The notes: a model not told the origin generated them from the sequence alone. Shown: positions 1,546 through 35,227, counted from the stretch's first letter. The stretch: 64,000 nucleotides of DNA from an uncultured Candidatus Poseidoniales archaeon (GCA_902605365.1 CACLCM010000005.1:3759-67758), one strand, 5' to 3'. Numbers and translations are program-made.

Positions 1546-2334
1546 TCATTGTAGGGTGTTTGACCATTCAGCAGTTGGCTTGTGCCAATCCCTTAGCTGG
1601 TCTGTTTCAAGACGTAGTTGTAGTCCGTCACCCTGCTCGAAATCTGAATCTTCTAGCATGAAGTCAACAACCAGTTCATTGCTTCTGAATGTATCATCAT
1701 ACAGAACTTCTTGCCCCACTACGCTTCCTTCCTCAGTCCACTGAAGAATCACACGAACGTGGCATTCTTGGAGAGGATTTCGCAATGAACATGATTCGCT
1801 ACTGCCATCATGCTCAACCATTACAAAGCCGTCCATGGTTTGAACACCAGGGATTGCAAACAAATCTATTACAGTATCCTTAGCAGTTGGAGCGCATGTG
1901 CATTCCATATTATCTGCTTCAGCCATTCCTATCAAATTGACAGTAACTTGCAAGTTTGCGGTTTCAACTGCGTCACTGGATATCGAAGTGGCTGTGACTT
2001 CGTAAGTACCTGGGAGTTCATATTGGTGGGAAGTAACTGCCCCTGAGCCTGATGTACCATCACCAAAATCCCACGAAATAGCATCTGCACCACCGACAAC
2101 AGAGAATACGAACTCATGCAGAATGTGCGTGATTGAATCTTCTTCATTGTTATCTCCGTCATCGATTTCGATTAGTGTGTAATGGTTTGTACCTTCTGAG
2201 AAATCAACCTTAGCGGAGAATGAATCACTACTTTGGGAACTCTGTAGTACATTTAGCGTTGCAAAAGTACCGGTGGAAACAACAGCGATTAAGACAATTA
2301 AGGCGATTGTTGTACCAGATAACTTGCTCAACAT
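1546..2334 (-). CDS. Membrane-anchored PKD-domain protein
   Basis: N-terminal hydrophobic anchor. SWDFGDGTSGSG...HQYELPGTYEVT is a PKD motif. Confidence 0.75.
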   Translation of the reverse strand: MLSKLSGTTIALIVLIAVVSTGTFATLNVLQSSQSSDSFSAKVDFSEGTNHYTLIEIDDGDNNEEDSITHILHEFVFSVVGGADAISWDFGDGTSGSGAVTSHQYELPGTYEVTATSISSDAVETANLQVTVNLIGMAEADNMECTCAPTAKDTVIDLFAIPGVQTMDGFVMVEHDGSSESCSLRNPLQECHVRVILQWTEEGSVVGQEVLYDDTFRSNELVVDFMLEDSDFEQGDGLQLRLETDQLRDWHKPTAEWSNTLQ

Positions 2335-5914: not shown

Positions 5915-6733
5915 TCAGTTCTTTTCGTGTTCGATATCGGACGCAAATCCGTCTCTTGCATCGCTCATACCGCCGAATAATGCTTGAGCGAATGTCAGGA
6001 CATCTGCCATTCCGTCTTCGGTTTCGCTAGAAAGAGGAGTTAGTCCTGGTGATTGTGAGAACTGTTGCATCATTCTAAGTTGATTGATAGCGAATTCAGT
6101 TCGCTGACCACCAGCCTCATCATACAATGCTAACTCTAGGATTTCAAGTCTTTCAGACCATTCTAGAATCTTCTCAAGTTCCTCTTCTTCGAGAAGGTCT
6201 GACTTTGAAAGGAAGTTCTTGGTTGGCAACCCTAGTCTAAATTCAACGATACTGGATAGAAGCATCTGAGATACGAATCCAGATGGACTTCTCGACAACA
6301 TAGGGTCGAATAGGTAAATGATGGCAGCTTGGTCTTGACCTAAAACCTCGATCAAGTGTGATGATGCCTCACGGAATGCGAATAACTCAACCTGTCCCGG
6401 AGTATCAACGATAATCAATTCTCCAGAGAGTGCGTGTAATTCATCAGCAACATCAAGCGCTTGTGCTGCTACCAAATCTGCAGCTAGAATCTGTGCACCG
6501 TTCGGTCCAAGATCGTACTCGTTCATGACTTCAGTAAGAGAAATAATATCTCTAACATCAAACTCAGCATCGTAGTGCACTCTTTCTGCACCAGGGTCGA
6601 GATTCACAGCTATTGCTTCAGTCTCTAAAAATCGACTCCATCTCTGGAAAGAGGTGACAAGTGAAGACTTGCCTGCGCCAGCGGTTCCAACGACAAATAT
6701 TACAGGAGGCGACGAAGTATCTAATCCGACCAT
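5915..6733 (-). CDS. GPN-loop GTPase
   Basis: GTAGAGKS P-loop, NLDPG, LGPNG (the GPN motif) and DTPGQVELF. Confidence 0.92.
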   Translation of the reverse strand: MVGLDTSSPPVIFVVGTAGAGKSSLVTSFQRWSRFLETEAIAVNLDPGAERVHYDAEFDVRDIISLTEVMNEYDLGPNGAQILAADLVAAQALDVADELHALSGELIIVDTPGQVELFAFREASSHLIEVLGQDQAAIIYLFDPMLSRSPSGFVSQMLLSSIVEFRLGLPTKNFLSKSDLLEEEELEKILEWSERLEILELALYDEAGGQRTEFAINQLRMMQQFSQSPGLTPLSSETEDGMADVLTFAQALFGGMSDARDGFASDIEHEKN

Positions 6734-6877
6734 ATTTTGTGGGCTCAGTCCTCCCTTCATCAACCTACCGTTCGCTAAACAATGACTATTCCGCTTATGA
6801 TAATGTCCGCACAATGGTTATACGCTAAGCAATGATGGAGAGATTGCCGCCATGCGGCATATGAAGGAGGTCTAATT

Positions 6878-9844
6878 ATGAGCGACGAAAACCCAAATGA
6901 ACCACCAATGCCACCCGGAATGCCACCAGCACCTCCTGGAATGCCTCCAGCACCACCTGGAATGCCGCCTGCCCCACCGGGTATGCCGCCTGCCCCACCG
7001 GGTATGCCACCAGCACCTCCAGGTATGCCTCCTGCACCACCTGGCATGCCTCCTATGGATGCCCCTCCTGCACCACCTGGCATGCCTCCTATGGATGCCC
7101 CTCCTGCACCTCCAGGTATGCCGGCCCCTCCTCCAGAAATGCCGCCTGCCCCACCTGGTATGCCAGCCCCTCCTCCAGAGATGCCTCCAATGGAAGCGCC
7201 TCCTGCTCCACCTGGTATGCCAGCAGCACCGCCTGGTATGGCTCCAATGGAAGCTCCACCTGCTCCACCAGAGATGCCACCGGCTCCTCCAGAGATACCT
7301 CCTATGGAAGCGCCACCTGCATCGCCTGTTGCGGCAGATGCCCTACTCGCCCCTCCAGAACCAGCATTTGATCCTTTGATGGCTCCTCCTGCTCCGCCGG
7401 CAGACCCGCTAATGGCTCCTCCGGCAGCGGATTTGCTAGCACCAGTTAGTGAAGTTGCAGTGGAAGAATCAGATATTCCTGCTGTTAACCCACTTGACCC
7501 AATCAACCCAGTTGGCGAGGATTTCGTCGCTGCTGGGGCAAAGATTCGACGCTCATCTGAAGTTGACGATGTACCTGGTGACAAGTTAGAAGGAACATTG
7601 CATGAGAAAGAAGTTTCAACACTAAATGCGGATGGAGAAATCGTAAAGCAAGATGTCAAGGGAGTTCTTACAGTTAGAAATCCTTCTGAATCAGATAGGA
7701 TTTACGATATTGATGTAATGTTGAATAATACGCTAAATACTGATTTAGCTGGTGACCACGTACAAGTTGATGAACTTGAATCTCGTAAGGAATTCTCTAC
7801 CAAATACAAGGTCAAGAATAGTCGAATGCTAATTCTCAGTGAGAGATTAGACACCAATCCTGCAAGAGACCAAGCCCGTTCATTGTCTGTCGCTAAAGGC
7901 GGCGAAGGCGGTCCATTGGATATGGAACTAGAAGTTCAGAATGTTTCAGGAGTTTCTCTAAACAATGTTACAGTTACCAGAGATATACCATCTCAACTAA
8001 ACATGGTTGTTATTGGTGGAGCTGAAATTGAAGATGGTGAACTTATTTGGGATGTAGGACACCTAACTGCTGGTGAAACCAAGATTCTATCCTTGTCTGG
8101 TACTATACATGTTGATGGAATTAAGCCAGTAAAGGCTGGTGTTGCTAAGGTGATATACAACGCAGATGTGACATTGTCTACTCTGTCATTCAGAGAATTC
8201 GATGTTTTCTGTCGAGGTTTCGCTTACATCAACTCTGTGGAATCTGAGAGGCCAGATAATTGGGAATGTAAGACAATATTCGAAAATCGTTCATCATTTA
8301 CAGTCGATCTTGTGAAGTTGCAGGTTAGAATGAAAGGAGAAGATGGTCTACTATTCGATGTAAACGATGTTTCAGAGGATGTACTTCCAGAAGGACGTTG
8401 GGAATCCGATACTGTTACTGTTGAAAGTAATGGTAAGCCAGATTTCACATGGGACTTAGGATACACAGTTCTTCCTCGTGCAACACATACCACAGAAGGC
8501 AAGATTGAGCTACAACCATCAACCTTCGAAGTATTGGATGCCAGTATGGAGAAATCTTACAGCAGAAATGTTCTTCCATCCTATAGAAGAAATGACTTAT
8601 CTGCTACAATTACAATCAAGAATGAAGGTTCATCGGCAATTAACAGGTTCTATTTGACAGATGATATACCTGGATTGTTTGAAGCTCCTGCCATTGAGGA
8701 TATCTCAGTTAAGGTAGGTAATAGCGATTTGACTGAAGACCAATTCAAGGCTGAAATTTCCCAAGGTGTAACTATCGAGAAGGAAATGAAGAGCCCAGAT
8801 GGTCCTGGACACACTATGGTGATGAAGATTGGAACAGGTAAGCCAATTGGTTTAGCACCTGGAAAGAGTATTGTAATCACTTACCCACTAGTTGCTCCAG
8901 ACCCAAGTCCTGGTAATGAGGCAGTAGCCGGTCCTGCTCGTTGTGAATTTAGCGCAGAGCAGTTTGGCCCACCTTGTGACAGGGAAGTAAATGATGTTCC
9001 AATTGTACGTGTAAGGCACAACCGCAGAAACTTCTCTGCAGGTAAGTCTGTAATGCCTATGGGCGGTAAGGGTCGATATGAAGTATTGATCTTATTCGAG
9101 AACAATGGAGACACTGCTCTACAAGACGTTTGTATCAACGATATTCTGCCATCAAACTTTGATTTGAAGGATTGGTCTGTACGTGGTGCTGGTGGAAACA
9201 AGAGAGACGATGTCACAATCGAGACAACTGATTCTGAATTGGGTAGCACGAATGTTTGGTCCATTCCTGTAGTAGACAAGGGAGAGCGCCTCGAAGTTTC
9301 CTTCGAAATTAAGGGCGATGGTGAAGTTGATGCTGAAGTTCTAAATCAGTTCCACGGAGTAACATTCGGAGACGAATTGGATGAAGATATGCCGCCAACA
9401 CCTACTGCTGAAGAAACTCCAGAAGAATCAGATGAAGACTCGGATGATGAACCTGGTGCAGGATACAAGTGGAGAGAAGATGTTCTGCTAAGAGTAATGG
9501 CTGCACATGGTATTGAAGAATCTCTACGTGACGATTTCGTAAGGCACGCTGTCGGCTTCGACAATGATGACAATATGTATCTTAAGAAGGTCGAAATCGA
9601 AAATGCTGCTGCCGCATGGGTTGCTAACGATTCACCTGCTGAAGAAGCAGAAGAAGAAGCACCTGCTGAAGAAGCAGGAGAAGAAGCACCTGCTGAAGAA
9701 GTTGCAGAAGAAGTTGCAGAAGAAGCAGAAACTCCTGCCGAAGAAGCGCCTGCTGATGAAGCATCAGATAAGGACTGTCCAATCTGTGGTGCAACCAGTT
9801 CAGCTGACGCTACTACTTGCGAATCTTGTGGATTTGCATACTGA
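6878..9844 (+). CDS. Large cytoplasmic multidomain protein: PPGMPP repeats, DUF11-like beta-sandwich domains, EF-hand-like loop, acidic repeats, C-terminal Zn ribbon
   Basis: 988-aa ORF with GGAGGT RBS. No signal peptide or TM segment. Motifs include NVTVTRDIP..LIWDVGHLTAGETK, ENNGDTALQDVCINDILP, DNDDNMYLKKVE and CPIC..CESC. Confidence 0.85.
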   Translation: MSDENPNEPPMPPGMPPAPPGMPPAPPGMPPAPPGMPPAPPGMPPAPPGMPPAPPGMPPMDAPPAPPGMPPMDAPPAPPGMPAPPPEMPPAPPGMPAPPPEMPPMEAPPAPPGMPAAPPGMAPMEAPPAPPEMPPAPPEIPPMEAPPASPVAADALLAPPEPAFDPLMAPPAPPADPLMAPPAADLLAPVSEVAVEESDIPAVNPLDPINPVGEDFVAAGAKIRRSSEVDDVPGDKLEGTLHEKEVSTLNADGEIVKQDVKGVLTVRNPSESDRIYDIDVMLNNTLNTDLAGDHVQVDELESRKEFSTKYKVKNSRMLILSERLDTNPARDQARSLSVAKGGEGGPLDMELEVQNVSGVSLNNVTVTRDIPSQLNMVVIGGAEIEDGELIWDVGHLTAGETKILSLSGTIHVDGIKPVKAGVAKVIYNADVTLSTLSFREFDVFCRGFAYINSVESERPDNWECKTIFENRSSFTVDLVKLQVRMKGEDGLLFDVNDVSEDVLPEGRWESDTVTVESNGKPDFTWDLGYTVLPRATHTTEGKIELQPSTFEVLDASMEKSYSRNVLPSYRRNDLSATITIKNEGSSAINRFYLTDDIPGLFEAPAIEDISVKVGNSDLTEDQFKAEISQGVTIEKEMKSPDGPGHTMVMKIGTGKPIGLAPGKSIVITYPLVAPDPSPGNEAVAGPARCEFSAEQFGPPCDREVNDVPIVRVRHNRRNFSAGKSVMPMGGKGRYEVLILFENNGDTALQDVCINDILPSNFDLKDWSVRGAGGNKRDDVTIETTDSELGSTNVWSIPVVDKGERLEVSFEIKGDGEVDAEVLNQFHGVTFGDELDEDMPPTPTAEETPEESDEDSDDEPGAGYKWREDVLLRVMAAHGIEESLRDDFVRHAVGFDNDDNMYLKKVEIENAAAAWVANDSPAEEAEEEAPAEEAGEEAPAEEVAEEVAEEAETPAEEAPADEASDKDCPICGATSSADATTCESCGFAY
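6899..7330 (+). repeat. Coding tandem repeat encoding PPGMPPA-like units (about 21 bp period)
   Basis: Repeated ccaccgggtatgccgcctgcc-like units, with synonymous variation between copies. Confidence 0.9.
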
Positions 9845-10270
9845 TTAGAGAGGATATTCCCAGCGAGGCCAAGTGTGGTCTCGGGTATCGTCTGAGACGA
9901 TCACTATTACCACTCTAGGGAATGTTCGTAGTGTATCCTCTAGTCCTGGAACTGCAGGTGGTATAACTCCAATACGCATGTCAACTGCCAACCAAGCATC
10001 TGGATATTGTCGTAGCCAAGCATCGACTTCAGCCATGATTCCTTCTGGTGGAACTCCTGGCCTGACACTAGCGAGATAGCCCCAGTCTCCGGGAACAGCT
10101 CGCTCTGAATCGGAAAATAAGAAGATTCTATTCTTAGACTCCATCTTCTCGATAAAGGATAGAGCGTTGGCTTCTGTTACTACGCAAGGAGAGCCTCGCA
10201 TTGGCATTGGTTGCGTGTGTTGCCAAGTCTTCCCGTCGTCGTCCATGAGATTAGCGTGTAGGGCTTGCAT
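9845..10270 (-). CDS. Hypothetical protein
   Basis: C-terminal 141 aa of the tracked ORF 9845-10456. Start moved to ATG 10270 to avoid overlap with the divergent gene. Confidence 0.6.
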   Translation of the reverse strand: MQALHANLMDDDGKTWQHTQPMPMRGSPCVVTEANALSFIEKMESKNRIFLFSDSERAVPGDWGYLASVRPGVPPEGIMAEVDAWLRQYPDAWLAVDMRIGVIPPAVPGLEDTLRTFPRVVIVIVSDDTRDHTWPRWEYPL

Positions 10271-10340
10271 GTTTGAGACCTTCGCCCAGTTGTCCAAATG
10301 CGTGACAACGTTCAAGCGATGGGTTATGCCCCATAGGGGC

Positions 10341-11252
10341 ATGAGCGGACAGTCTGCACCTCCACCAACCCCACCCGGTGGTTCTATGATGTTCATGCTA
10401 TTGTTCATGGTAGTAATGACATTCATGCTGATGTCAAGTGACATAAGGACAAGCATGGGTGACTATGCAGACCCATTCCTATCATCATGGTTGCCGAATG
10501 AACATTGGTTCGTAATCACAGTACTAATTCTCGGTTCAATATCGATGTTTGTGAACACTGCATTACGAAATGTCTTCATGGACCCAATCTCTCAAGCACA
10601 TATTGCGCATCGCCAAGGACAAGTCCGCAAGATGATGAATGAAGCAAGAGTCGGAAGAGATCCTATTCTGATGGACAAGGCCCAAACGCTGCAACAGCAC
10701 ATGATGCCAGAACAGATGAGTGTTCAGATGGGGGCAATGAAGCCAATGATGTTCACTATGGTTTTCATTATCGCTATTTTTGCCTGGATGGGTAACACTG
10801 TAGAGGTGTTCCGTGTGAACTACGTCTCATTACCATGGTCTGCAGAATGGAACTTGATGACTGACAAATTCCTATTCTTCCCAGCATGGATTGCTGTCTA
10901 TATTTGCATGTCAGCACCTTTGGGTAGAGTTGTTGACCGCCACATAAAATTGATACGATATCGAACTCACCCAATTGTAGCCGAAGGTCAGCGTCTAAAA
11001 GAGCCTCTATTGCACTTAGTCAGTGCTCCTAAGGGGCAGAAGAATGCTCAAGCATCATCCCGTCGTCGACGCTCTGAGCAAAGGCGCAATGGACCAAGAA
11101 AGAAGGCAGCAGCTGTAGTATCTGATACTGAAACAAAAAGTAAAACCAAGGGCACAAATTCTGCTGCCTGTCCTCAGTGTGGTAGCACAATGATTGAACG
11201 TGATGGTCCTAATACCAATGTGTGCAAGATATGCCGCCATGAATGGCGGTGA
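10341..11252 (+). CDS. DUF106 / EMC3-TMCO1 (Oxa1 superfamily) membrane protein with a C-terminal basic linker and Zn ribbon
   Basis: TM helices flank a Met/Gln-rich coiled-coil (MKPMMFTMVFIIAIFAWM, WIAVYICMS). It lies directly upstream of cmk, as is usual for archaeal DUF106. It ends CPQC...CKIC. Confidence 0.8.
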   Translation: MSGQSAPPPTPPGGSMMFMLLFMVVMTFMLMSSDIRTSMGDYADPFLSSWLPNEHWFVITVLILGSISMFVNTALRNVFMDPISQAHIAHRQGQVRKMMNEARVGRDPILMDKAQTLQQHMMPEQMSVQMGAMKPMMFTMVFIIAIFAWMGNTVEVFRVNYVSLPWSAEWNLMTDKFLFFPAWIAVYICMSAPLGRVVDRHIKLIRYRTHPIVAEGQRLKEPLLHLVSAPKGQKNAQASSRRRRSEQRRNGPRKKAAAVVSDTETKSKTKGTNSAACPQCGSTMIERDGPNTNVCKICRHEWR

Positions 11253-12957: not shown

Positions 12958-15321
12958 TTATTCGATCTTCTTTATTTTGGCAGGTGCCAATAGTCCAAAT
13001 ACAGCTAAAAGTAGCAAAAGTGCACCTGCTGCTGCAATGTAAATTGTACCTTGGCCAATTTCGAAACTATCGTCCTCGTCAGCGCTGGTAGTATCTTCAA
13101 CAGCTTCTCCTATTGAGATGACTTTAGATTCTAGATTGTTAGTTTCATCAACTTCATCTACATTTGTTCCTCTGTCAACCTCAACATCGATAATTACACT
13201 TGAATCATCATCAGGTGCTTGCATGTCACATGTCACGGAACCTAATTGTCCCGGGGCCAGAACTTGAATCACTCCTGAACCAAAGGACTGACCGTCAGCG
13301 GAGCATCTAACTCCAACCATTGTTGCAGTAACCTGGCCTGAATTACGGATGAATGCTTTTACTTCAAACAAATCACCTGCTCGAATGTCATCATCGATTC
13401 TAATTTCTTCGACAAACAATTCTGCAAGTGCTCTGACTTCTAAGTCAAGAACTCTCTCTACACAATCATTCTCATCACATGCTGTGATAAGTACTGATGT
13501 AAATCCAGGAGTAGGGGCATCGATAACAATCTCTCTTGTTGACATATCGACTGTTGCCCAAGACCTATTTGTGGTGACGGTCAAATCCTCTGCGAATGTA
13601 TCTGAATCAGTTAATGTAAACTCGACTGTGTGAACATATCCATGCTCAACTGGAACCACTGCGGGGAATTCTGCAAGAACAGGCTTGTCATCGACATTTG
13701 CTACATTTATTGTAGATACCTCTCGCCAGTAATTACCTGCAGAGTCGGTCACTGTAGTGGTAATTTGCGCAGTTCCAGATGCCTCAGGAACTAGTTTGAT
13801 TCTAATTTGTCCTTCTGTCAAATCTACTTCAACAACGTCAGTATTTGAGTTTTGGAACTGAACAGTCAAATCTTCAGTATCAGTTCTGTCATCACTACAT
13901 CGTGATAGAAGTGGTAGGATTATTCCTCCACCATCTTCCTGAAGATCTTGTGAACCAATTACCGCACATGTTGGGTCTTCATCATATTCAATCGAATATG
14001 CGCCAATTACTTCGAGGTTGTTTATCACGAGGTTCACAGATGCAGGTGCACCATCATTACCCCAATTGTACCAGGATTTCACAGTGATTTCTAATTCACT
14101 ATCTGAGCTGTCCATGACGTGTCCAATAGGTAACTGTAAGTCGAAAACTCCTAAACTAGTTCCATTGTTATTGGAGATAGTTTCCCCATTAACCACAATG
14201 GTCCATCGTGTGGCACTAGGCACCATTGCGCTAACATCGCCGACAATGCTTCCCTGCACTCTCAGGTGTGGGTCGTTTATGTCAATCCATGCCTTAGTCA
14301 GGCAAGTATCTGTAATCGTGAACCTCAATTGTAAATCAGAAGATACAGAAGGAATCAGTCCCTCTCCAATCGATACCCAAGCACCTTGATTATCGACATA
14401 CTCTATTGTTACACTTCCATTTTCGTCATTGTGCTCTGTATGTATCCTTCCCCATGACTGGCCAGCAGGTTTCTCCAAAACTTCCGTAGTCCAAGTGCCA
14501 CTGTCTGAATTAAGGCCACAAGGGGCTGTTGATACAGATGCTAATTGACCAGTAGTAATGTCTAAATCAATTATTGGCCATTCAGTAAACTGATTTATAG
14601 ATGTGGAAGTGACTCTCTCAGCTCCATACCAAGGTGTTCGCATAGTGATTTCCAAAGCAACAGCATCGACCTGAAGTTCAGAATCATCTGTCCCTCCATT
14701 CGATACATAATCGAGATTGATTTCTAAGTTTGCAAGGTCTTGCCAAGTCCAGTTATTGGAGTTAGTTATCGGTGTAGACCAGCCATTTGTCATGTAGTAT
14801 AATGGAGATTGGGTATTGCTCCAGGTCTTAACCAAGTCATGAATCCCGTTGTTCACTACTGAAAACCTTGCTTTATCCTGCTGTAGTGGGTTTGGTACGT
14901 CAAAGTGGACAACCAGTTCTACATTCTCGATATTATTTCCAGTTAGTCCAGATACATCGAAGCCACCCACGGTAATGTCTGGCCCTGTAGACCAACTGTA
15001 GGCTCCATCGGGGCTTCCAATTGAGGCGTTCGAATTAGTCGAGGTTGTGCTAGCCCAAATCCTCTGTTGATCGAGATGCTCAGGTAGAGTTATGCCCATT
15101 GTCATTCGATTATCAGCAACCATGCCGTGAACATACTGACCATCTTCCAATCTGTCTTCTGCAGTGAATGCGAGATGACGTTTGAAGTCCCATTCAGATT
15201 CATTCTCCATGTTTCCCTGAGGGAACATGTCGATAGTTTGAGTTGAGTGAACACTTCGTGCTTCAGCCAATGTAATCGGCATGGCTAGTAAAAAAATAAC
15301 AAGCACGGCAAATCGGCGCAT
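12958..15321 (-). CDS. Secreted, C-terminally anchored surface protein with Ig/cadherin-like and CARDB domains
   Basis: Signal peptide MRRFAVLVIFLLAMP..AEA. VANVDDKPVL. CARDB-like VDRGTNVDEVDETNN. C-terminal TM followed by a Lys-rich tail. Confidence 0.8.
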   Translation of the reverse strand: MRRFAVLVIFLLAMPITLAEARSVHSTQTIDMFPQGNMENESEWDFKRHLAFTAEDRLEDGQYVHGMVADNRMTMGITLPEHLDQQRIWASTTSTNSNASIGSPDGAYSWSTGPDITVGGFDVSGLTGNNIENVELVVHFDVPNPLQQDKARFSVVNNGIHDLVKTWSNTQSPLYYMTNGWSTPITNSNNWTWQDLANLEINLDYVSNGGTDDSELQVDAVALEITMRTPWYGAERVTSTSINQFTEWPIIDLDITTGQLASVSTAPCGLNSDSGTWTTEVLEKPAGQSWGRIHTEHNDENGSVTIEYVDNQGAWVSIGEGLIPSVSSDLQLRFTITDTCLTKAWIDINDPHLRVQGSIVGDVSAMVPSATRWTIVVNGETISNNNGTSLGVFDLQLPIGHVMDSSDSELEITVKSWYNWGNDGAPASVNLVINNLEVIGAYSIEYDEDPTCAVIGSQDLQEDGGGIILPLLSRCSDDRTDTEDLTVQFQNSNTDVVEVDLTEGQIRIKLVPEASGTAQITTTVTDSAGNYWREVSTINVANVDDKPVLAEFPAVVPVEHGYVHTVEFTLTDSDTFAEDLTVTTNRSWATVDMSTREIVIDAPTPGFTSVLITACDENDCVERVLDLEVRALAELFVEEIRIDDDIRAGDLFEVKAFIRNSGQVTATMVGVRCSADGQSFGSGVIQVLAPGQLGSVTCDMQAPDDDSSVIIDVEVDRGTNVDEVDETNNLESKVISIGEAVEDTTSADEDDSFEIGQGTIYIAAAGALLLLLAVFGLLAPAKIKKIE

Positions 15322-15425
15322 ATCACCCCCTAGTTGCAATCTAACTTCAATGGAGCGGTGTTAGAAGTCATGATTACTAACGGAATGAGATAAATACGGC
15401 TTGGCGGTGGACCAAAACAACCGAT

Positions 15426-27634: not shown

Positions 27635-29755
27635 TCATGCTTGTTGCCAATCTGTTCCATTCCACCACAATGTAGTGCCATTGTCCATGGATCTCCATGT
27701 ATTGCCATTAGCATCAGTCCACTGTTGGACAACTGCAGGTTCTGCCACTACTGTGGGTTGAGCGACGGGTTGAACCGGTGTAACCGGTTGTGTACTCATT
27801 CCAACTTGAGCTTCTACATGGGTTGGTTGGAATGGTTTGAATTGGCCAGCCATTAAAGTCTGAGGTAATTCTTTCTCCTCCTCATCAACGATTCCATTAC
27901 CGCCTCTTCTCATGAAGAAAACTCCCGCTAGTGCTGCAATAATTACGAAAGCGACTATTCCAATGATTAGCATCATATTGTCATCATCATCTTCTGCTGC
28001 TAATTCTGCTGCCAATTGTGCATTGTCTCCCACTCCGTCACCATCGGTGTCTAGAGTCTCACTAGCATCATTAGGGAATGCATCAGCATTATCTCCAACG
28101 CCATCCATGTCTGAATCTGCTGATTCATTTGCATCGTTAGGGAACACGTCGCTATTGTCTCCTACATTATCGCCGTCACTATCTACAGTCTCTGTAGCAT
28201 CAACTGGGAATGCATCTGCATTATCTCCAACTCCATCCATGTCTGAATCAAGAGTCTCACTGGAATCTTCAGGGAATACATCTGTATTGTCTCCAACTCC
28301 ATCCATATCTGAATCCATGGTTTCGCTTGCATCCTCAGGGAATGCATCTGCATTATCTCCAACCCCATCGCTATCGGTGTCAAGAGTCTCATTAGCGTCA
28401 TTCGGGAATGCGTCTGAGTTATCTCCCACTCCGTCCATATCGGAGTCTAGAGTCTCATTTGCATCACTAGGGAATGCATCTGCATTATCACCTACACCAT
28501 CCATGTCTGAGTCTAGAGTTTCACTAGCATCGTTAGGGAATGCATCAGAATTATCTCCAACACCATCCATGTCTGAGTCTAGAGTTTCACTAGCATCATT
28601 AGGGAATACATCGGCATTATCACCAACCCCGTCCATGTCTGAGTCCATAGTTTCGCTTGGATCGTTAGGGAATGCATCGCCATTGTCTCCAACGCCATCC
28701 ATGTCAGAATCCACGGTCTCACTAGCATCATTAGGGAATGCGTCTGCATTATCTCCTACTCCATCCATGTCCGAATCCATCGTTTCACTCGCATCATTGG
28801 GGAATGCATCAGAATTGTCGCCAACTCCGTCACTGTCAGAGTCAACGGTTTCACCTGCATCATTAGGGAATACATCCGCATTATCACCCACGCCATCCGA
28901 ATCAGAATCTGTATCTTCATTCGGGTCATTAGGGAATGCATCATTTCCATCTAGTGTTCCATCACCATCGCTATCGATGTCAACTATGTTTACACTGTCT
29001 GGACAATCTTCTGTATTACCATAGTCAATACCATCTTTTGGTGTAACCTTGACAGTCCAAGTTTCACCTACGGAAGTTGCAGAAGAAGGAATAGTCATCA
29101 GGTCATTGAATGAACTGCGCAGGTTGCCATTAGCAAACCATCGAATTTGAGTTCCAGATTCTGGATCGCTTTCTTCATCTGAGTATGTGTATGAAAGCGT
29201 GAATGATTGGTCAACCGCAACATCTCCATTAGGAGTTAATCTAAGATCAGATGCCACAGGTGGTATGTTTTGTGGTGGTAATTCTTCACTAACAGTCCAA
29301 GAGTTAGTACCCCAGTTGTCTCCAGAGTTACCATTAGCTCCATTTGCATAAAGTACTGCTAGATCGAAAGTAACAGTTCCGGAACCTGGTGAAGGTGCAA
29401 TCCAATCTGCAGACCAAGAGCGCTGAAGGTCTGAACTGTGAGTTAATTCTCCATTTGATATCTTGACTCTATTACCCAAATTTGTCCATGAGCCACTAGA
29501 AGCGTCTAGGTTAAATCCGCCTTCACCGGTAGAAGACATGCCACTTCCAGTCCAAGAAAGAGAGTATGTTAAGCCGGGTGTGTAGGTGGTTGGTAGTCCA
29601 GTCATAGTTGGTGCAATCATCGCATCTGTGGCGTGGCAACCGCAACCACTGCTGGCGGAACCGGTTTTACCTGAGGAATTAGCATCAGCAAGGTTTGCTC
29701 CTGATACTGCTAGCAAGAGAAGACTGATGGCAAATGCACGGAAATACGGCGACAT
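27635..29755 (-). CDS. Surface protein: Reeler-like N-domain, Ig-like domain, thrombospondin type-3-like Ca-binding repeats, TM and Trp-rich tail
   Basis: Signal peptide; CGCH..GLPTTYTPGLTYSL..GGFNL..WIAPSPGSGTVTF; DSDxDGVGDNxDAFPND repeats; TM; tail WTDANGNTW..DNGTTLWWNGTDW. Confidence 0.85.
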   Translation of the reverse strand: MSPYFRAFAISLLLLAVSGANLADANSSGKTGSASSGCGCHATDAMIAPTMTGLPTTYTPGLTYSLSWTGSGMSSTGEGGFNLDASSGSWTNLGNRVKISNGELTHSSDLQRSWSADWIAPSPGSGTVTFDLAVLYANGANGNSGDNWGTNSWTVSEELPPQNIPPVASDLRLTPNGDVAVDQSFTLSYTYSDEESDPESGTQIRWFANGNLRSSFNDLMTIPSSATSVGETWTVKVTPKDGIDYGNTEDCPDSVNIVDIDSDGDGTLDGNDAFPNDPNEDTDSDSDGVGDNADVFPNDAGETVDSDSDGVGDNSDAFPNDASETMDSDMDGVGDNADAFPNDASETVDSDMDGVGDNGDAFPNDPSETMDSDMDGVGDNADVFPNDASETLDSDMDGVGDNSDAFPNDASETLDSDMDGVGDNADAFPSDANETLDSDMDGVGDNSDAFPNDANETLDTDSDGVGDNADAFPEDASETMDSDMDGVGDNTDVFPEDSSETLDSDMDGVGDNADAFPVDATETVDSDGDNVGDNSDVFPNDANESADSDMDGVGDNADAFPNDASETLDTDGDGVGDNAQLAAELAAEDDDDNMMLIIGIVAFVIIAALAGVFFMRRGGNGIVDEEEKELPQTLMAGQFKPFQPTHVEAQVGMSTQPVTPVQPVAQPTVVAEPAVVQQWTDANGNTWRSMDNGTTLWWNGTDWQQA
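28019..28975 (-). repeat. Coding tandem array of 14 full plus 1 partial 66-bp (22-aa) TSP3-like repeats
   Basis: DSDMDGVGDNADAFPNDASETL units counted from the translation. Confidence 0.9.
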
Positions 29756-31369: not shown

Positions 31370-34300
31370 ATGCGGAAGGCTGTTTTACTATCGGCTTTGA
31401 TGTTCTGCGTCGTGCTTTCACCTTTCGTTCAAGCATCAGATACAGACAATGACGGTATATCGGATGACACGGACTTGTGCATGTGGGCACCCGGTACTGC
31501 AAACTCTACTGCAGGTATGGGTTGTCCAGATAGGGATGGTAATGGCCTCGCAGATTTCGAAGAGGAAATCAGGCACAATTGGTTAGATTCAAAAGAAGAA
31601 AAGAGAATTAATAACGATCCACTTGGTAATGAGCCAGTAGCTCTTGAATGGTCTTTAGATGGTACTGTTTACTACGGTGGTGGACAAAGTGATTTCGTAG
31701 AAATGTATGATGCCCTTGGAAATTACGTATCAACCTTGTATCAGATGCCAGGCGATATCAGGGATATCGAACGTTCACCCGATGGTACTATGCTCGCAGT
31801 TGTTAGCACAGGTACTGGTGCTGTGATAATTAATTCAACAACTGGGGCCTTGGTTTCTAACCTCGTAAACAATAGCAACGGCTCCATACAGGGCTCAATT
31901 TATTCGATTGCTTGGTCCAATGACCAGAGCCGAGTGTTTGTTCACAATGGCACATCTGGCATAACTTGGTTCACTACAAATAATTGGTCACAAGAGCGAT
32001 TGATTCCAAACTTCCCTACTTGGGCTGGTTCTAGTTGGATGGGTGGAATTGATACAACACCTGATGATAGTTTGGTTATATTTTCAGCAATTAGTGAAAT
32101 TAATGCATATTGGATAAATAATGGTACATTTGCTTGGACGATAGACAATCATACACAGTATATTAGAGCTCTAAAGGTTAGTCCAGATGGAAGGTATCTT
32201 GCTTCAGGAAGTGATTCAAATAATATGTTAATTCATACCCTTGGCAGAACACCTGTGCTGATCAAAACTCTAGATATCGGTTCAGATGTTTACGAGATTG
32301 ATATTTCCAAGGATGGTGGAACTGTATTTGTTGCAAGTCATTCACGAACTGTCAAAACCTTTGATTCACTTTCTTGGAATACTCTGGGTAACATATCTGG
32401 TTTCAATGGAAGCAGTAATAATAACCGTGGAACAGAATCTATTGCTGTAAGCCCTGATGGTGAACGTTTAGTTATCAGTCACCGCAGAGGCAATATGTCG
32501 CTTTACTTCGCCCCTGATGCTTACATTAGATTACATGGCGAGCATTACACTTCCCTCTTGGAGGATTATTGGAGATTATCATACCCTTCAAATACGGAAT
32601 CAGTAAGGTATTGGAATTTTGATAGGGTTACTTCAACAGTTGATGCTTGCGATTCTAAAGATTACATTGGTTCGAGTCCTATTGGTGTGAGCCCGCAATA
32701 TGCAACCAAGAACTCCAGTTATACAACAACAGGCGTGTGGGATTGTAAAAATACTGATAGCCAAATATTGGAAATACCATACGGCAGAGTTCCCGGTGCT
32801 TTAATGGTAAAATCGGGAAGCACTTCTGAGACTTGCATCGAAACTATTGGAGGCCTCTCAATGGGTCAGGTGAGATGGATAGTTTCCGGTTCCAACAAAG
32901 CATCACTGACAGGAGCAGGTGAGATGCCAGGACTTGTATGGTCTTCTGTAGTTCCAAACGATGATTCTGATGGTGTAGTTGAATGGAAGGATTTAGATCC
33001 GTCATGCCCAGATACTGAAATTGTATTAGCACACCGATGGGAAAATCGTAGTGATATTAGAATATTAGAGGAAACTGTACTCTGTGAGAATTGTGCATTT
33101 AAGGACAGTATTTACACTTCGTCAAGTGCCCGCTATCGTGCTTCAAACAGTGAATATGAGTCAGATGTTGTTGGCGGTGTTGCAGGACCTAGTGGCGCTG
33201 GTTCAATTGGATTCACCGAGATGGTATATGCAGTGAACAATGCACACTTAGTTCACATTATTCCGCTTGTAGACAATTATACTCACGGTGCGAGTGATGC
33301 ACTCTTAGACGGTGGTGTTCTAGTAAATGCGACTCTCAATAATTCTCGTTCAGATGATTGGCCGTTACAAACCAACATGCGAGCATTCATTTCAACCGAT
33401 TCTTTAGCGTCGAATCTTGATTTCTTGAAATTCCTTCTCACAGATGTTGGCCAAATGCGTTGGGAGCAAGCAGGTTTCACAGGACTGAATGCTTGGGATT
33501 TGTACCAATCATGGGGCAAACTAGGTGTCAACATGATTCACCTTCTACCCGATGCTGATGAAGATGGCGTTTGGGATGGCGAAGACCTTTGTCCTGAAAC
33601 CATGATTGGAATCGTGGTCAATGAACTCGGTTGTGCTGAAAATCAGCTCGATGATGATTTAGACGGATTCACTAACGATTTGGATGATTGTGACAATGTC
33701 TCAGGGACCTCTACTCTTGGTAGCGTTGGTTGTCCAGATTCAGACGGAGATCAGTGGGCTGATGACTTTGACAGCCACCCTAGCGACTCATCAGAATGGA
33801 ATGACACTGACATGGATGAATTTGGTGATAATTCTGATGATTGCATAGACACCTATGGTAACTCGACAGAGGACCTACTTGGTTGTGTAGATTCTGATGG
33901 GGATGGCTGGTCAGATTCAGGAGATACATTCCCTGATGACCCAACAGAATGGATTGATACTGACAATGATGGATATGGAGATAATGCTGATGCATTCCCG
34001 AATGAGATTTCTCAATGGCTAGATACTGACTCGGATGGTTTTGGTGATAACAATACTGGGCTGGAAGGAGATGATTGCGTGGAAGTAAGTGGTACTTCAC
34101 ATGAAGATGGTATCTTCGGTTGTATCGATACAGATTCGGACGGTTGGGCAGATTCGATTGATGACCTACCATTCAATCCTGAACAGCACCGTGACGAAGA
34201 TGGTGACGGCGTTGGGGATGATGCATCGGTCAATGACTATGATTGGTGTGTAGAGACACCTGCAGACGAGATTAGCATGGTTGATTCGGTTGGTTGTGGA

Positions 34301-35227
34301 CCATCTGAAAGAGATGGTGATTATGATACATTTACAGATGACATGGACCAGTGTCCAAACACTCCAATTTCTCAATCAACTCAGGTAAATACGACAATAT
34401 ATCTTGATTCTGAAAGAACTGAGATCAATCCATACGTCGGCTGTGCACCTTCAGAAATCGACTCCGATGGTGATGGAATCTCCTTAGACAGTGACTGGGA
34501 TGACAACAACCCTGACCAATGGTTTGACTCTGATGGTGATGGGTATGGAGACAACTCAGATGGATTAAACGGTGATGATTGTCCCAACGATGCTGGTAAT
34601 TCGATTTATGATCAGGTCGGTTGCTATGACTTAGATGGTGACGGCTGGTCATTTGATTCAGATTTCAATGACGGCGACCCTACTCAATGGAATGATACTG
34701 ATGAAGATGGATTTGGAGATAACTGGGATAATCCAGATTGGACTGAATCAAGAACATTAGGAATTTATCTCGAAGGAGCTACTCAACCAGATAGATGTCC
34801 GAATGAATATTCTCCTTATCTTTATTCAGACTATCAAGGATGTTTGACTACAATTCCAGATTCTGATGAGAATAAAATTATTGCATCTGATGATGAAACC
34901 GAAGACTCCAACCTGATTATGATAATTGCAATAGCAGGAACTGGGGTAGTATTCCTATTATTCGGGGCTATAGCAATGATTCTGAAAAAGAAACCTGCGC
35001 AAAACAAACGCCGTCCAAAGAAATCTGCTCCACAAATTAGGGATGATGCAGAGGAAGTATTGCAGTCTCTGGACTCAGAGAAATCAGACAACTTCGTGTC
35101 TTCCTGGGAAGAGTTACCTGATGGTGACTGGATGGATACAGATGAAAACGGAGTTAATTGGTATCAGGACACTACTGGCCGTTATTGGTATTCAGACTCT
35201 GGTGGTTTCCGAGTTTGGGATAAGTGA
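31370..35227 (+). CDS. Large surface protein: WD40 beta-propeller, PstS-like solute-binding domain, TSP3-like repeats, TM and Trp-rich tail
   Basis: Signal peptide; WD40 (WSLDG, SPDGT, SPDGRYLASGS); LSMGQVRWIVSG..WKDLDPSCPDTEI..GSIGF..WPLQTNM; DxDxDG repeats; TM at ~34915-34985. Confidence 0.85.
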   Translation: MRKAVLLSALMFCVVLSPFVQASDTDNDGISDDTDLCMWAPGTANSTAGMGCPDRDGNGLADFEEEIRHNWLDSKEEKRINNDPLGNEPVALEWSLDGTVYYGGGQSDFVEMYDALGNYVSTLYQMPGDIRDIERSPDGTMLAVVSTGTGAVIINSTTGALVSNLVNNSNGSIQGSIYSIAWSNDQSRVFVHNGTSGITWFTTNNWSQERLIPNFPTWAGSSWMGGIDTTPDDSLVIFSAISEINAYWINNGTFAWTIDNHTQYIRALKVSPDGRYLASGSDSNNMLIHTLGRTPVLIKTLDIGSDVYEIDISKDGGTVFVASHSRTVKTFDSLSWNTLGNISGFNGSSNNNRGTESIAVSPDGERLVISHRRGNMSLYFAPDAYIRLHGEHYTSLLEDYWRLSYPSNTESVRYWNFDRVTSTVDACDSKDYIGSSPIGVSPQYATKNSSYTTTGVWDCKNTDSQILEIPYGRVPGALMVKSGSTSETCIETIGGLSMGQVRWIVSGSNKASLTGAGEMPGLVWSSVVPNDDSDGVVEWKDLDPSCPDTEIVLAHRWENRSDIRILEETVLCENCAFKDSIYTSSSARYRASNSEYESDVVGGVAGPSGAGSIGFTEMVYAVNNAHLVHIIPLVDNYTHGASDALLDGGVLVNATLNNSRSDDWPLQTNMRAFISTDSLASNLDFLKFLLTDVGQMRWEQAGFTGLNAWDLYQSWGKLGVNMIHLLPDADEDGVWDGEDLCPETMIGIVVNELGCAENQLDDDLDGFTNDLDDCDNVSGTSTLGSVGCPDSDGDQWADDFDSHPSDSSEWNDTDMDEFGDNSDDCIDTYGNSTEDLLGCVDSDGDGWSDSGDTFPDDPTEWIDTDNDGYGDNADAFPNEISQWLDTDSDGFGDNNTGLEGDDCVEVSGTSHEDGIFGCIDTDSDGWADSIDDLPFNPEQHRDEDGDGVGDDASVNDYDWCVETPADEISMVDSVGCGPSERDGDYDTFTDDMDQCPNTPISQSTQVNTTIYLDSERTEINPYVGCAPSEIDSDGDGISLDSDWDDNNPDQWFDSDGDGYGDNSDGLNGDDCPNDAGNSIYDQVGCYDLDGDGWSFDSDFNDGDPTQWNDTDEDGFGDNWDNPDWTESRTLGIYLEGATQPDRCPNEYSPYLYSDYQGCLTTIPDSDENKIIASDDETEDSNLIMIIAIAGTGVVFLLFGAIAMILKKKPAQNKRRPKKSAPQIRDDAEEVLQSLDSEKSDNFVSSWEELPDGDWMDTDENGVNWYQDTTGRYWYSDSGGFRVWDK

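What the first reader, a model, noticed from the sequence alone, without database searches (positions are those of the whole stretch)
6878..9844. Cytoplasmic PPGMPP-repeat scaffold with beta-sandwiches, EF-hand loop and Zn ribbon
Seen: about 170 aa of Pro/Gly/Met repeats, several DUF11-like beta-sandwich segments, a canonical EF-hand loop (DNDDNMYLKKVE), Glu/Ala repeats and a terminal Zn ribbon. There is no signal peptide or TM, although DUF11-like domains are normally extracellular. Known: PPG-hydrophobic and PGM motifs are ligands of eukaryotic GYF and WW domains. Inference: the first globular segment (LHEKEVSTLNADGEIVKQDVKGVLTVRN) resembles the start of mu-homology domains of adaptin-mu/delta-COP, and Pro-rich-plus-muHD is the muniscin layout. 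It could be a eukaryote-like adaptor or scaffold. It is transcribed divergently from the GPN GTPase.
Basis: partly seen in the sequence, partly recalled or inferred. Interest (0 to 1): 0.7.

Follow-up and report, generated by a model that had tools for sequence, protein, structure and literature searches.

The report
Adaptor-like mu-homology protein in marine archaea
This gene of a planktonic Marine Group II archaeon encodes a cytoplasmic scaffold whose folded core begins with the "mu-homology" domain that eukaryotic vesicle-coat adaptors use to bind cargo; the papers I could search report that domain in prokaryotes only from Asgard archaea, whereas here it is a near-universal single-copy gene that also carries a proline-motif array, a calcium-loop-like helix pair and a zinc ribbon.

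Summary
It has a PPGMPP array of about 150 aa, an all-beta core, an acidic linker, a helix-loop-helix with an EF-hand-like loop, an E/A tract and a Cys4 zinc ribbon. It has no signal peptide or TM.

The mu-homology guess holds on three counts:
- A family profile searched against all PDB sequences returns almost only AP mu-subunit C-terminal domains.
- 21 of 46 family members hit Pfam PF00928.
- An AlphaFold model of residues 225-500 (pLDDT 92) gives only mu-homology domains among its top 50 Foldseek/PDB hits.

Three DUF11-type sandwiches follow the domain. The last resembles the gamma-adaptin ear only weakly.

The core is homologous end to end to the Asgard "Adap_comp_sub" candidates listed by Eme et al. 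2023. It is also present, single copy, in 110 of 121 Poseidoniales genomes and in a few other Thermoplasmatota families.

It is not an AP mu subunit, because it has no longin domain. It is not a muniscin, because it has no F-BAR and the domain is not C-terminal. An adaptor function is inferred, not shown.

I rate it a new variant of a known kind, of moderate to high interest.

The parts
6878..9844 (+). Whole gene: 988-aa cytoplasmic multi-domain protein (P0001)
   Evidence: ORF. SD-like GGAGG 7 nt upstream of the ATG. 583 homologues at E<=1e-3. Single copy in its own genome.
6902..7357 (+). PPGMPP(A) proline-motif array (about residues 9-160): tandem repeat, predicted disordered or PPII
   Evidence: 49% Pro and 16 motif units. 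DNA tandem repeats with periods 21/36/42/57. The number of units varies from 6 to 23 among variants whose core is 96-97% identical.
7358..7573 (+). Second motif zone (FDPLMAPP, ADPLMAPP, AADLLAP; about residues 161-205) and a conserved linker (VGEDFVAAGAKIRRSSEVDDV) leading into the core
   Evidence: Read from the sequence. The ADALLAPP/DPLLxPP motifs and the AGAxIR linker recur in homologues. pLDDT is low until about residue 225.
7574..8341 (+). Mu-homology domain (about residues 233-488; boundaries approximate). Its second sub-domain (about 345-449) is also the region that hits DUF11
   Evidence: Profile against PDB: AP mu2/mu4/mu1 C-terminal domains, E 0.0026, in two collinear stretches. 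PF00928 in 21 of 46 family members. AF2 model pLDDT 92.2. Foldseek top 50 all mu-homology domains, E 5e-8, TM 0.55-0.62 over about 240 of 250 residues.
8342..8992 (+). Two further beta-sandwich domains (about residues 489-600 and 601-705)
   Evidence: AF2 model: all-beta, pLDDT above 90. Whole-model Foldseek hits are strings of Ig-like domains (integrin legs, antigen I/II C123, TRAPPII).
8993..9337 (+). Fourth beta-sandwich (about residues 706-820): DUF11/TIGR01451 type, with weak gamma-adaptin-ear similarity
   Evidence: TIGR01451 at 740-770. The domain profile (A5) has gamma1-adaptin ear as its six best PDB hits, E 0.0017-0.08. Pfam shows DUF11 in 27 of 40 members and no PF02883.
9338..9460 (+). 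Acidic disordered linker (about residues 821-861)
   Evidence: D/E-rich composition. pLDDT below 50 at model residues 634-652.
9461..9652 (+). Three-helix module with an EF-hand-like loop (residues 862-925; loop DNDDNMYLKKVE = 9560-9595)
   Evidence: Helices at 867-876, 881-894 and 904-918, pLDDT 95-97. The loop is conserved in 116 of 121 homologues. No Pfam or PROSITE EF-hand match. The loop is absent from family f3 homologues and from Asgard homologues.
9653..9763 (+). Glu/Ala-rich disordered tract (residues 926-962)
   Evidence: 43% Glu and 32% Ala. Tandem repeats with periods 12 and 27 nt. pLDDT about 32.
9764..9844 (+). C-terminal Cys4 zinc ribbon (CPIC-x12-CESC) and stop codon
   Evidence: Zn_ribbon_3 E 3e-5, DZR E 7e-4. 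pLDDT about 90. Cys4 kept in 109 of 121 homologues.
5915..6814 (-). Context: divergent GPN-loop GTPase gene (the likely start is the ATG at 6733)
   Evidence: PF03029 E 1.9e-52. The same arrangement occurs in a distant Poseidoniales genome but not at the Lokiarchaeial locus.
9845..10228 (-). Context: convergent small conserved gene of unknown function (the conserved part is about the last 127 codons of ORF 9845..10456)
   Evidence: 48% identity to the gene at the same position in locus L002. No Pfam hit.

Best explanation
The gene encodes a soluble, cytoplasmic, multi-domain adaptor-type scaffold.

Shown here:
- The ordered core of about 590 aa starts with a genuine mu-homology domain, the two-sandwich peptide-binding module of AP mu subunits, delta-COP, stonins and muniscins.
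- Three DUF11-type beta-sandwiches follow it.
- The core is one conserved unit shared with Asgard archaea and a few Thermoplasmatota lineages.
- Poseidoniales added a strain-variable array of identical PPxMPP motifs at the N-terminus. The window's own family also added an EF-hand-like helix-loop-helix on acidic tethers. The zinc ribbon also occurs in the P0136-type Thermoplasmatota form.

Inferred mechanism:
- The mu-homology domain, and possibly the terminal sandwich, docks on short linear motifs or small tail modules of partner proteins at the inner face of the membrane.
- The polyproline array acts as a long multivalent PPII arm. It would recruit or cluster many copies of a still unidentified proline-motif reader.
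- The EF-hand-like loop would make the assembly Ca2+-sensitive, and the zinc ribbon would give one more docking point.

It works like a eukaryotic endocytic or coat adaptor in logic (folded motif-reader plus disordered motif array). It does so without the rest of an AP complex.
For: Reality and conservation:
- 583 homologues at E<=1e-3; the 120 best listed are all at least 57% identical over the core.
- The gene is present in 110 of 121 Poseidoniales genomes and 53 of 56 high-quality ones, with one match in nearly every genome that has it.

Cytoplasmic location:
- No TM or signal peptide in the window protein or in 85 homologues; the few windows over 1.6 are not TM-like (P0136-type: in the Cys-rich ribbon).
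- A Cys4 zinc ribbon is present.

Mu-homology domain:
- The family profile against 177,635 PDB sequences gives 27 hits, of which 24 are AP-2, AP-4 or AP-1 mu (best E 0.0026). The two stretches are collinear over the whole domain.
- PF00928 matches 21 of 46 members at E<=0.01. The best is 1.9e-10, and three of the ten proteins scanned score above the gathering cut-off.
- The AF2 model of residues 225-500 has pLDDT 92.2 and pTM 0.81.
- Its Foldseek top 50 are exclusively mu2, mu3A, mu4, mu1 and delta-COP mu-homology domains. E is 5e-8 and about 240 of 250 target residues are aligned.

Rest of the core:
- The model of residues 205-988 is confident and all-beta, pLDDT 88.
- The last sandwich has gamma-adaptin ear as its best PDB hits, E 0.0017.

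Multivalent arm:
- 16 near-identical motif units here, and 6 to 32 in close relatives.

Same family as published Asgard candidates:
- Homology over the full core at 22-30% identity to Hel-, Loki- and Njordarchaeial proteins.
- The family motif N-x-S-x-x-x-R-I-W is visible in a sequence from Eme et al. Supplementary Table S3.
Against:
- The window protein itself does not hit PF00928, even at E<=10.
- The equivalents of mu2 F174 and D176 (the YxxPhi pocket) appear as E238 and T240, but that stretch of the alignment scores only 0.6 bits. The classical cargo pocket is therefore probably not conserved.
- No sigma/longin family (PF01217), WW, GYF or profilin gene was detected in 21 MGII genomes. For PF01217, GYF and profilin the controls were silent (WW rang weakly in one control), so this is weak evidence.
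- The mu-homology sub-domain B and the last sandwich also hit the generic prokaryotic DUF11 model.
- Gene neighbourhood gives no functional partner. Synteny is conserved within the order only.
Confidence: 0.55

Rival explanations
1. The mu-homology fold is retained, but the protein is not a cargo or motif adaptor. It would be a structural cytoplasmic scaffold made of generic DUF11/Ig-type sandwiches, for example a sub-membrane lattice, spacer or condensate-forming protein. On this reading the resemblance to AP mu carries no functional meaning.
For: - DUF11 hits in both the mu-homology sub-domain B and the last sandwich.
- Whole-model Foldseek is dominated by strings of Ig-like domains.
- The YxxPhi pocket residues are not evidently conserved.
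- There are long low-complexity Pro and acidic tracts.
- No other AP parts were detected.
Against: - For the isolated domain the top 50 structural hits are all mu-homology domains, not other sandwiches.
- Profile hits are specific to AP mu among all PDB sequences.
- The strongly conserved surface-type motifs and the single-copy, near-universal distribution point to a specific partner.
Confidence: 0.22
2. It is the cargo-binding subunit of a true proto-coat complex. With as yet unrecognised partners (longin-type, solenoid or small-GTPase proteins) it would deform or sort membrane in MGII cells.
For: - A mu-homology domain plus an ear-like sandwich in one chain.
- Eme et al. 2023 report all five AP domain types, unfused, in Asgard archaea.
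Against: - PF01217 was found in 0 of 21 MGII genomes (control silent).
- The MGII and Lokiarchaeial loci I read have no longin, solenoid or GTPase partner other than a GPN-loop GTPase, which is not an Arf/Sar type.
- MGII genomes are small (1.3-2.1 Mb).
Confidence: 0.08
3. The proline array is the working part. Like a formin FH1 or Ena/VASP proline region, it would feed a cytoskeletal polymer; the window also encodes an actin-family protein at 43681-44706. The sandwiches would only anchor it.
For: - PPGMPP units resemble FH1 or VASP proline motifs (my own knowledge).
- The number of units varies.
Against: - No profilin family was detected in 21 MGII genomes.
- The array is lineage-specific, while the core is the conserved part.
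- There is no FH2- or WH2-like element.
Confidence: 0.05
4. It is a surface or secreted DUF11 protein exported by a non-classical route.
For: DUF11/CARDB modules are usually extracellular (family annotation). Genuine secreted CARDB and PKD proteins are encoded nearby.
Against: - No signal peptide or TM in 85 homologues.
- A Cys4 zinc ribbon and an EF-hand-like module are present.
- The mu-homology fold is known only from cytosolic proteins.
Confidence: 0.03

Closest known systems
Asgard archaeal 'Adap_comp_sub (PF00928)' eukaryotic-signature-protein candidates (Eme et al. 2023, Nature 618:992, PMC10307638, Supplementary section 4.3.1 and Table S3). NCBI names one of them 'COG1470 family protein'
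   Same: - Homologous over the entire core of about 590 aa: 22-30% identity and E 1e-30 to 1e-60.
- The shared motif N-x-S-x-x-x-R-I-W is present.
- No signal peptide or TM.
- The homologue P0193 carries two C-terminal CxxC pairs that read like a zinc ribbon (my reading of the sequence; no significant Pfam match).
   Different: - The organism is a Thermoplasmatota (Poseidoniales) archaeon, not an Asgard archaeon.
- The gene is near-universal and single copy in the order. Eme et al. describe the Asgard distribution as sparse.
- It carries a PPxMPP array of 150-300 aa, acidic tethers and an EF-hand-like module that the Asgard proteins lack.
- It forms a separate, long-branched clade with 100/100 support.
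Mu-homology domains of AP-1 to AP-4 mu subunits and COPI delta (e.g. PDB 2pr9, 1bxx, 4ikn, 3l81, 4o8q)
   Same: - Same two-sandwich fold: TM 0.55-0.62, with about 240 of 250 residues aligned.
- Profile-level sequence similarity over both ends of the domain.
   Different: - No N-terminal longin domain and no detectable AP partner subunits.
- The YxxPhi pocket residues are not evidently kept.
- The domain is followed by three more sandwiches.
- Only 10-16% identity.
Muniscins and stonins (FCHo1/2, Syp1, SGIP1, stonin-2): a disordered motif-rich region followed by a mu-homology domain
   Same: A long disordered proline- and motif-rich region lies immediately N-terminal to a mu-homology domain. 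The logic of a multivalent scaffold is the same.
   Different: - No F-BAR or membrane-phospholipid-binding head.
- The mu-homology domain is not C-terminal.
- No evidence of AP-2-like partners.
- The comparison rests on my own knowledge of these families, because no muniscin structure ranked in the Foldseek lists.
Gamma-adaptin / GGA ear domain (PDB 1gyv, 1gyu, 1iu1; Pfam PF02883)
   Same: The profile of the last sandwich (residues 700-830) has the gamma1-adaptin ear as its six best PDB hits, E 0.0017-0.08, aligned over about 77 residues.
   Different: - The match is of borderline significance.
- None of the 40 isolated last-sandwich segments hit PF02883, whereas 27 hit DUF11.
- No separate structural test of this domain was possible.
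DUF11 / TIGR01451 (called 'CLIPPER' in newer Pfam labels) and CARDB beta-sandwich repeats of prokaryotic surface proteins
   Same: Significant Pfam and NCBIfam hits at 344-414 and 740-770.
   Different: The protein has no export signal. One DUF11-hitting stretch forms part of a mu-homology domain, and the protein also carries intracellular-type modules.

Membership tests
Mu-homology domain (Pfam PF00928 Adap_comp_sub) | All-beta fold of about 250-280 aa made of two beta-sandwich sub-domains, superposable on solved mu-homology domains | tested here: met
   The AF2 model of residues 225-500 has pLDDT 92.2. The Foldseek PDB top 50 are all mu-homology domains, with E 5e-8, TM 0.55-0.62 and about 240 aligned columns.
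Mu-homology domain (Pfam PF00928 Adap_comp_sub) | The protein itself matches the Pfam model above the gathering score (31.6 bits) | tested here: not met
   The window protein has no PF00928 hit, even at E<=10.
Mu-homology domain (Pfam PF00928 Adap_comp_sub) | Family-level sequence relationship to PF00928 and to AP mu C-terminal domains | tested here: met
   21 of 46 full-length homologues hit PF00928 at E<=0.01, best 1.9e-10. Three of the ten proteins scanned exceed the cut-off (38.3, 35.2 and 32.3 bits). In the family profile search against PDB, 24 of 27 hits are AP mu subunits, E 0.0026.
Mu-homology domain (Pfam PF00928 Adap_comp_sub) | Conserved cargo pocket (mu2 F174, D176, W421, R423 for YxxPhi) | tested here: inconclusive
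   In the HMM alignment F174 and D176 fall on E238 and T240, but that stretch scores only 0.6 bits.
AP-complex mu subunit / COPI delta | N-terminal longin (sigma-like, PF01217) domain fused to the mu-homology domain | tested here: not met
   The N-terminus is a disordered Pro array with no Pfam domain.
AP-complex mu subunit / COPI delta | Partner subunits (sigma; beta and gamma/alpha trunks) encoded in the genome | tested here: inconclusive
   PF01217 was found in 0 of 21 MGII genomes, but the control genomes were also silent. Adaptin_N was not searched.
Muniscins (FCHo1/2, Syp1, SGIP1) | N-terminal F-BAR or membrane-phospholipid-binding domain | tested here: not met
   No such Pfam hit. The N-terminus is a PPGMPP repeat.
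Muniscins (FCHo1/2, Syp1, SGIP1) | Disordered Pro- or motif-rich linker directly before the mu-homology domain | tested here: met
   Residues 1-225 are Pro-rich and of low confidence, and they directly precede the domain.
Muniscins (FCHo1/2, Syp1, SGIP1) | Mu-homology domain is the C-terminal domain | tested here: not met
   About 500 further residues follow: three sandwiches, a helix-loop-helix module and a zinc ribbon.
Asgard 'Adap_comp_sub' ESP-candidate family (Eme et al. 2023) | Collinear homology over the whole multi-sandwich core of about 590 aa | tested here: met
   phmmer hits cover query positions about 10-600 of proteins 590-720 aa long, E 1e-30 to 1e-60. Labelled members are Hel-, Loki- and Njordarchaeial. 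The shared motif is visible in the paper's Table S3.
Asgard 'Adap_comp_sub' ESP-candidate family (Eme et al. 2023) | Asgard origin, as the family was published | tested here: not met
   The close homologues are named Poseidoniales or Thermoplasmatota. 110 of 121 genomes of the window's own order carry the gene. The clade is separate from the labelled Asgard sequences.
DUF11 / TIGR01451 repeat proteins | Match above the curated cut-off | tested here: met
   PF01345 scores 35.6 bits against 24.6. TIGR01451 scores 41.5 bits against 24.
DUF11 / TIGR01451 repeat proteins | Export signal or cell-surface context typical of the family | tested here: not met
   No signal peptide or TM in the window protein or in 85 homologues.
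EF-hand | Helix-loop-helix with a 12-residue loop carrying ligands at positions 1, 3, 5 and 12 | tested here: met
   D895, D897, N899 and E906 lie between helices 881-894 and 904-918, pLDDT 95-97. The pattern is conserved in 116 of 121 homologues.
EF-hand | Match to a curated EF-hand model or pattern (Pfam, PROSITE PS00018) | tested here: not met
   No Pfam EF-hand hit at E<=10. PS00018 fails at positions 6 (M) and 9 (K), and 0 of 121 homologues pass it.
EF-hand | Ca2+ binding | not testable with these tools
   This needs ITC, 45Ca overlay or a structure.
Gamma-adaptin/GGA ear (PF02883) | Sequence or structure match of the last sandwich to ear domains | tested here: inconclusive
   The profile search against PDB gives the gamma1-adaptin ear as the top six hits, E 0.0017-0.08. 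There is no PF02883 hit among 40 members.

The most novel reading that the evidence does not exclude
Poseidoniales run a cytoplasmic 'tail-reading' adaptor system of their own. The mu-homology/ear-like core, or its polyproline arm, would recognise the roughly 30-aa Trp-rich module that ends the cytoplasmic tails of many unrelated large surface proteins in the same genomes. This would tether or sort the cell-envelope proteins from inside. If so, motif-based cargo recognition by a mu-homology domain would predate eukaryotes and would not be an Asgard-specific invention.
Probability: 0.12. Interest if true: 0.9.

Novelty: new variant of a known kind. Interest (0 to 1): 0.6.

Why it matters
The mu-homology domain is counted among the eukaryotic signature proteins. 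Its presence in Asgard archaea has been read as inheritance of adaptor-complex building blocks by eukaryotes (Eme et al. 2023).

Here the same protein family is a core, single-copy gene of one of the most abundant archaeal groups of the surface ocean, outside the Asgard archaea. It is also present in a few other Thermoplasmatota families. This has three consequences:

1. It weakens the use of this domain as an Asgard-specific marker.
2. It shows that the domain works in cells with small genomes in which no sigma/longin gene was detected. Its ancestral role is therefore probably simpler than coat assembly.
3. It offers a highly conserved, soluble and confidently modelled protein (pLDDT 88-92) on which the ancestral ligand of mu-homology domains could be determined in vitro.

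The overlap of DUF11 and PF00928 hits on the same sub-domain also hints at where the mu-homology domain came from.

Tried and rejected
- The search for homologous proteins with an alignment of distant members returned only relatives of the first sequence. With a Lokiarchaeial query it returned six proteins.
- The search for related loci on genome contigs failed twice because no conserved stretch of 7-10 columns was found. I therefore have no named-organism census beyond the labels.
- An Asgard-wide tally was impossible: L004 is not a held genome.
- Model coordinates are not exposed, so I could not superpose the cargo pocket or cut out the last domain for its own fold search.
- phmmer of the single protein against PDB gave only a chance hit, Tir, E 0.44.
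- WW reading of the Trp-rich tails: rejected as a family assignment. Pfam WW found nothing in 21 genomes, and hmmscan of the two tails scanned found nothing. An earlier follow-up in this scan reads the module as a propeller blade.
- Co-evolution of the Pro array with the Trp module: not supported within family f3. Genomes with 0 and with 4-6 Trp modules have similar Pro arrays.
- GPN GTPase as a functional partner: rejected as unsupported, because the adjacency is order-level synteny only.
- The 294-aa minus-strand ORF 6775..7659 is a shadow of the CCN-rich repeat and not a gene (my inference).

Full report
**1. Observation**

The window holds an uninterrupted 988-codon ORF at 6878..9844(+). 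A GGAGG box lies 7 nt upstream of the ATG.

- Residues 1-160 are 49% Pro, 17% Ala and 14% Met, with 16 PP[GE][MI][PA] units. The DNA there is a tandem array with periods of 21 to 57 nt.
- DUF11 is significant in Pfam (35.6 bits against 24.6; residues 344-414) and in NCBIfam TIGR01451 (41.5 bits against 24; residues 740-770).
- DNDDNMYLKKVE lies at 895-906. An E/A tract lies at 926-962. A CPIC...CESC ribbon lies at 967-985.
- The most hydrophobic 19-mer scores 1.09, so there is no TM or signal peptide.
- A GPN-loop GTPase gene lies head to head.

One correction is needed. The loop is EF-hand-like, not canonical. It keeps the ligand positions 1, 3, 5 and 12, and it sits between two confident helices. 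It fails PROSITE PS00018 at positions 6 and 9, and no Pfam EF-hand model matches it.

**2. A real, conserved gene**

A search with residues 225-900 found 583 homologues at E<=1e-3. The 120 best are at least 57% identical. Where they carry names, these are Poseidoniales, Poseidoniaceae, Thalassarchaeaceae or Thermoplasmatota.

A six-frame search of 121 genomes of the window's order found the gene in 110, and in 53 of 56 high-quality genomes. Nearly every genome has one copy. The window's own genome has one copy.

Synteny (UbiA, ornithine carbamoyltransferase, GPN GTPase, this gene, a small conserved gene, EMC3-like insertase, cytidylate kinase, Cbf5) is the same in a 59%-identical relative. This argues against a specific link to the GTPase.

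**3. Distant relatives**

A full HMMER scan of 1.84 billion cluster representatives gave 439 hits at E<=1e-3. Many are proteins of 590-720 aa that align over the whole core at 22-30% identity. The labelled ones are Asgard: Helarchaeota, Lokiarchaeota (Harpocratesius, named 'COG1470 family protein'), Promethearchaeia and Njordarchaeales.

Within Thermoplasmatota, full-length homologues occur in Poseidoniales and in four other families (f18, f10, f42, f43 in the tool's coding). Most other lineages have only generic DUF11 matches.

In a maximum-likelihood tree the Thermoplasmatota-type sequences form one clade with 100/100 support on a long branch. It is separate from the three labelled Asgard sequences. 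Almost none of 85 homologues has a TM-like stretch; the few windows that exceed 1.6 are not TM-like.

**4. The mu-homology domain**

Three independent tests agree.

(a) A profile of 46 family members was searched against all 177,635 distinct PDB sequences. It returned 27 hits, of which 24 are C-terminal domains of AP-2 mu2, AP-4 mu4 and AP-1 mu1 (best E 0.0026). There are two collinear stretches. Profile positions 149-257 (residues 345-449) align to mu2 chain positions 152-262.

(b) Pfam PF00928 (Adap_comp_sub) matches 21 of the 46 members at E<=0.01, with a best E of 1.9e-10. Three of the ten proteins scanned score above the gathering cut-off. The window protein itself does not match.

(c) AlphaFold2 with an 85-sequence alignment gives a confident model of residues 205-988 (pLDDT 88) and of residues 225-500 alone (pLDDT 92.2, pTM 0.81). 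Foldseek of the isolated domain against the PDB lists only mu-homology domains in its top 50: mu2, mu3A, mu4, mu1 and COPI delta. E is 5e-8, TM is 0.55-0.62, and about 240 of 250 target residues are aligned.

With the whole model, strings of Ig-like domains rank first, but mu-homology domains still appear from rank 29.

**5. The rest of the protein**

After the mu-homology domain (about 233-488) come three more beta-sandwiches (about 489-600, 601-705 and 706-820). Then follow a disordered acidic linker, a three-helix module with the EF-hand-like loop (862-925), a disordered E/A tract and the zinc ribbon.

A profile of the last sandwich has the gamma1-adaptin ear as its six best PDB hits (E 0.0017-0.08). 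However, Pfam sees it as DUF11 in 27 of 40 members and never as PF02883. I treat the ear similarity as a lead only.

The same residues of mu-homology sub-domain B hit both DUF11 and PF00928 in Asgard members. This suggests that this sub-domain is a DUF11-type sandwich.

**6. Lineage-specific additions**

Asgard and non-Poseidoniales homologues mostly consist of the core alone. The P0136-type Thermoplasmatota form carries a C-terminal zinc ribbon, and the Lokiarchaeial P0193 has two C-terminal CxxC pairs that read like one.

The proline array is found in Poseidoniales. Among variants whose core is 96-97% identical and which share the start MSDENP, the N-terminal region ranges from 151 to 281 aa (6-23 units). 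In the genus it reaches 32 units. Collapse of repeats during metagenome assembly could inflate this variation.

In the second family of the order (f3) the arrays are shorter and interleaved with acidic tracts, and the EF-hand-like loop is missing.

**7. What is known**

Eme et al. 2023 (PMC10307638) list 'Adap_comp_sub PF00928' proteins as Asgard homologues of the C-terminal domain of AP mu. They describe these as sparse and never fused to the longin domain. A sequence in their Table S3 carries the family's N-x-S-x-x-x-R-I-W motif, so it is the same family.

Full-text searches for the domain in Poseidoniales or other non-Asgard archaea found nothing.

Earlier AI notes of this scan reached the same reading for orthologues in other MGII genomes. 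They are not independent evidence. I repeated the key tests on this window.

**8. Mechanism**

Shown: a cytoplasmic protein that combines a mu-homology domain, three sandwiches, a multivalent proline array, an EF-hand-like loop and a zinc ribbon.

Inferred: it acts as an adaptor or scaffold. The folded core would read short motifs or small tail modules, and the proline array would offer many identical docking sites.

It is not an AP mu subunit. It has no longin domain, and PF01217 was found in 0 of 21 MGII genomes, although the controls were silent. It is not a muniscin either, because it has no F-BAR and the domain is not C-terminal.

No WW, GYF or profilin reader for the proline motifs was detected.

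**9. A partner lead, tested in part**

At least nine proteins of this 60%-complete genome end in a Trp-rich module of about 30 aa (W.D.NG..W....DG...WW......W). In the two window tails where the anchor can be read (27635..29755, 31370..35227), the module follows the last TM and a basic stretch, so it should be cytoplasmic.

An HMM of the module finds 4-9 copies in 9 of 12 Poseidoniales genomes. It finds none in 14 other Thermoplasmatota that carry the proline-less homologue, and none in 8 further genomes.

This fits a Poseidoniales-specific pairing. However, three small-genome members of the order have the proline-bearing protein and no detectable module. Within family f3, array size does not track module count.

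The module is not a Pfam WW domain. An earlier follow-up of this scan reads it as a propeller blade. I give the pairing about 12%.

**10. Verdict**

The muniscin and adaptor reading is only partly supported.

This is a new variant of a known kind: the published Asgard PF00928 family, found as a core gene outside Asgard and with a new domain architecture. Its function is untested.

Noticed in passing
window 20150-20257(-), 27635-27727(-), 35105-35227(+); also genome contigs C1, C3, C9, C21, C38: A Trp-rich module of about 30 aa (W.D.NG..W....DG...WW......W) ends the C-terminal tails (cytoplasmic where the TM anchor and basic stretch can be read) of at least nine unrelated, mostly large proteins, most with predicted TM segments. 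There are 4-9 copies per genome in 9 of 12 Poseidoniales genomes tested and none in 22 other Thermoplasmatota. It is not a Pfam WW domain.
   Followed up: partly
window 9845-10228(-): A small gene convergent with the target is conserved at the same position in a distant Poseidoniales genome (48% identity over 127 aa). It has no Pfam match. The ORF as listed (203 aa) probably starts too early.
   Followed up: partly
window 10167-11252(+): The EMC3/TMCO1-like (archaeal YidC-type) insertase gene ends in a long basic tail plus a Cys4 zinc ribbon (CPQCGS...CKICRHEW). Terminal zinc ribbons seem unusually common on proteins of this genome.
   Followed up: no
window 6775-7659(-): A 294-aa Gly/Ala/Ser-rich ORF lies on the opposite strand of the proline array. 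It is a mirror image of the CCN-rich repeat and almost certainly not a gene. An annotation pipeline could call it by mistake.
   Followed up: no
loci L006-L011 (Poseidoniales family f3 orthologues): In the second family of the order the orthologue lacks the EF-hand-like YLKK loop. Its proline motifs (PPPPPGMDD, PPPPPPGF) are fewer and interleaved with long acidic tracts. The accessory regions therefore evolve fast while the core stays fixed.
   Followed up: partly
Asgard homologues P0346, P0164, P0193 (residues about 115-215): The same residues hit both DUF11 (PF01345) and Adap_comp_sub (PF00928). This suggests that sub-domain B of the mu-homology domain is a DUF11-type sandwich. Newer precomputed Pfam labels call PF01345 'CLIPPER'.
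   Followed up: partly
window 12958-15339(-) and 1546-2334(-): CARDB- and PKD-domain proteins are encoded close by. This shows that the genome also has beta-sandwich proteins of the kinds usually found on cell surfaces, distinct from the cytoplasmic one studied here.
   Followed up: no
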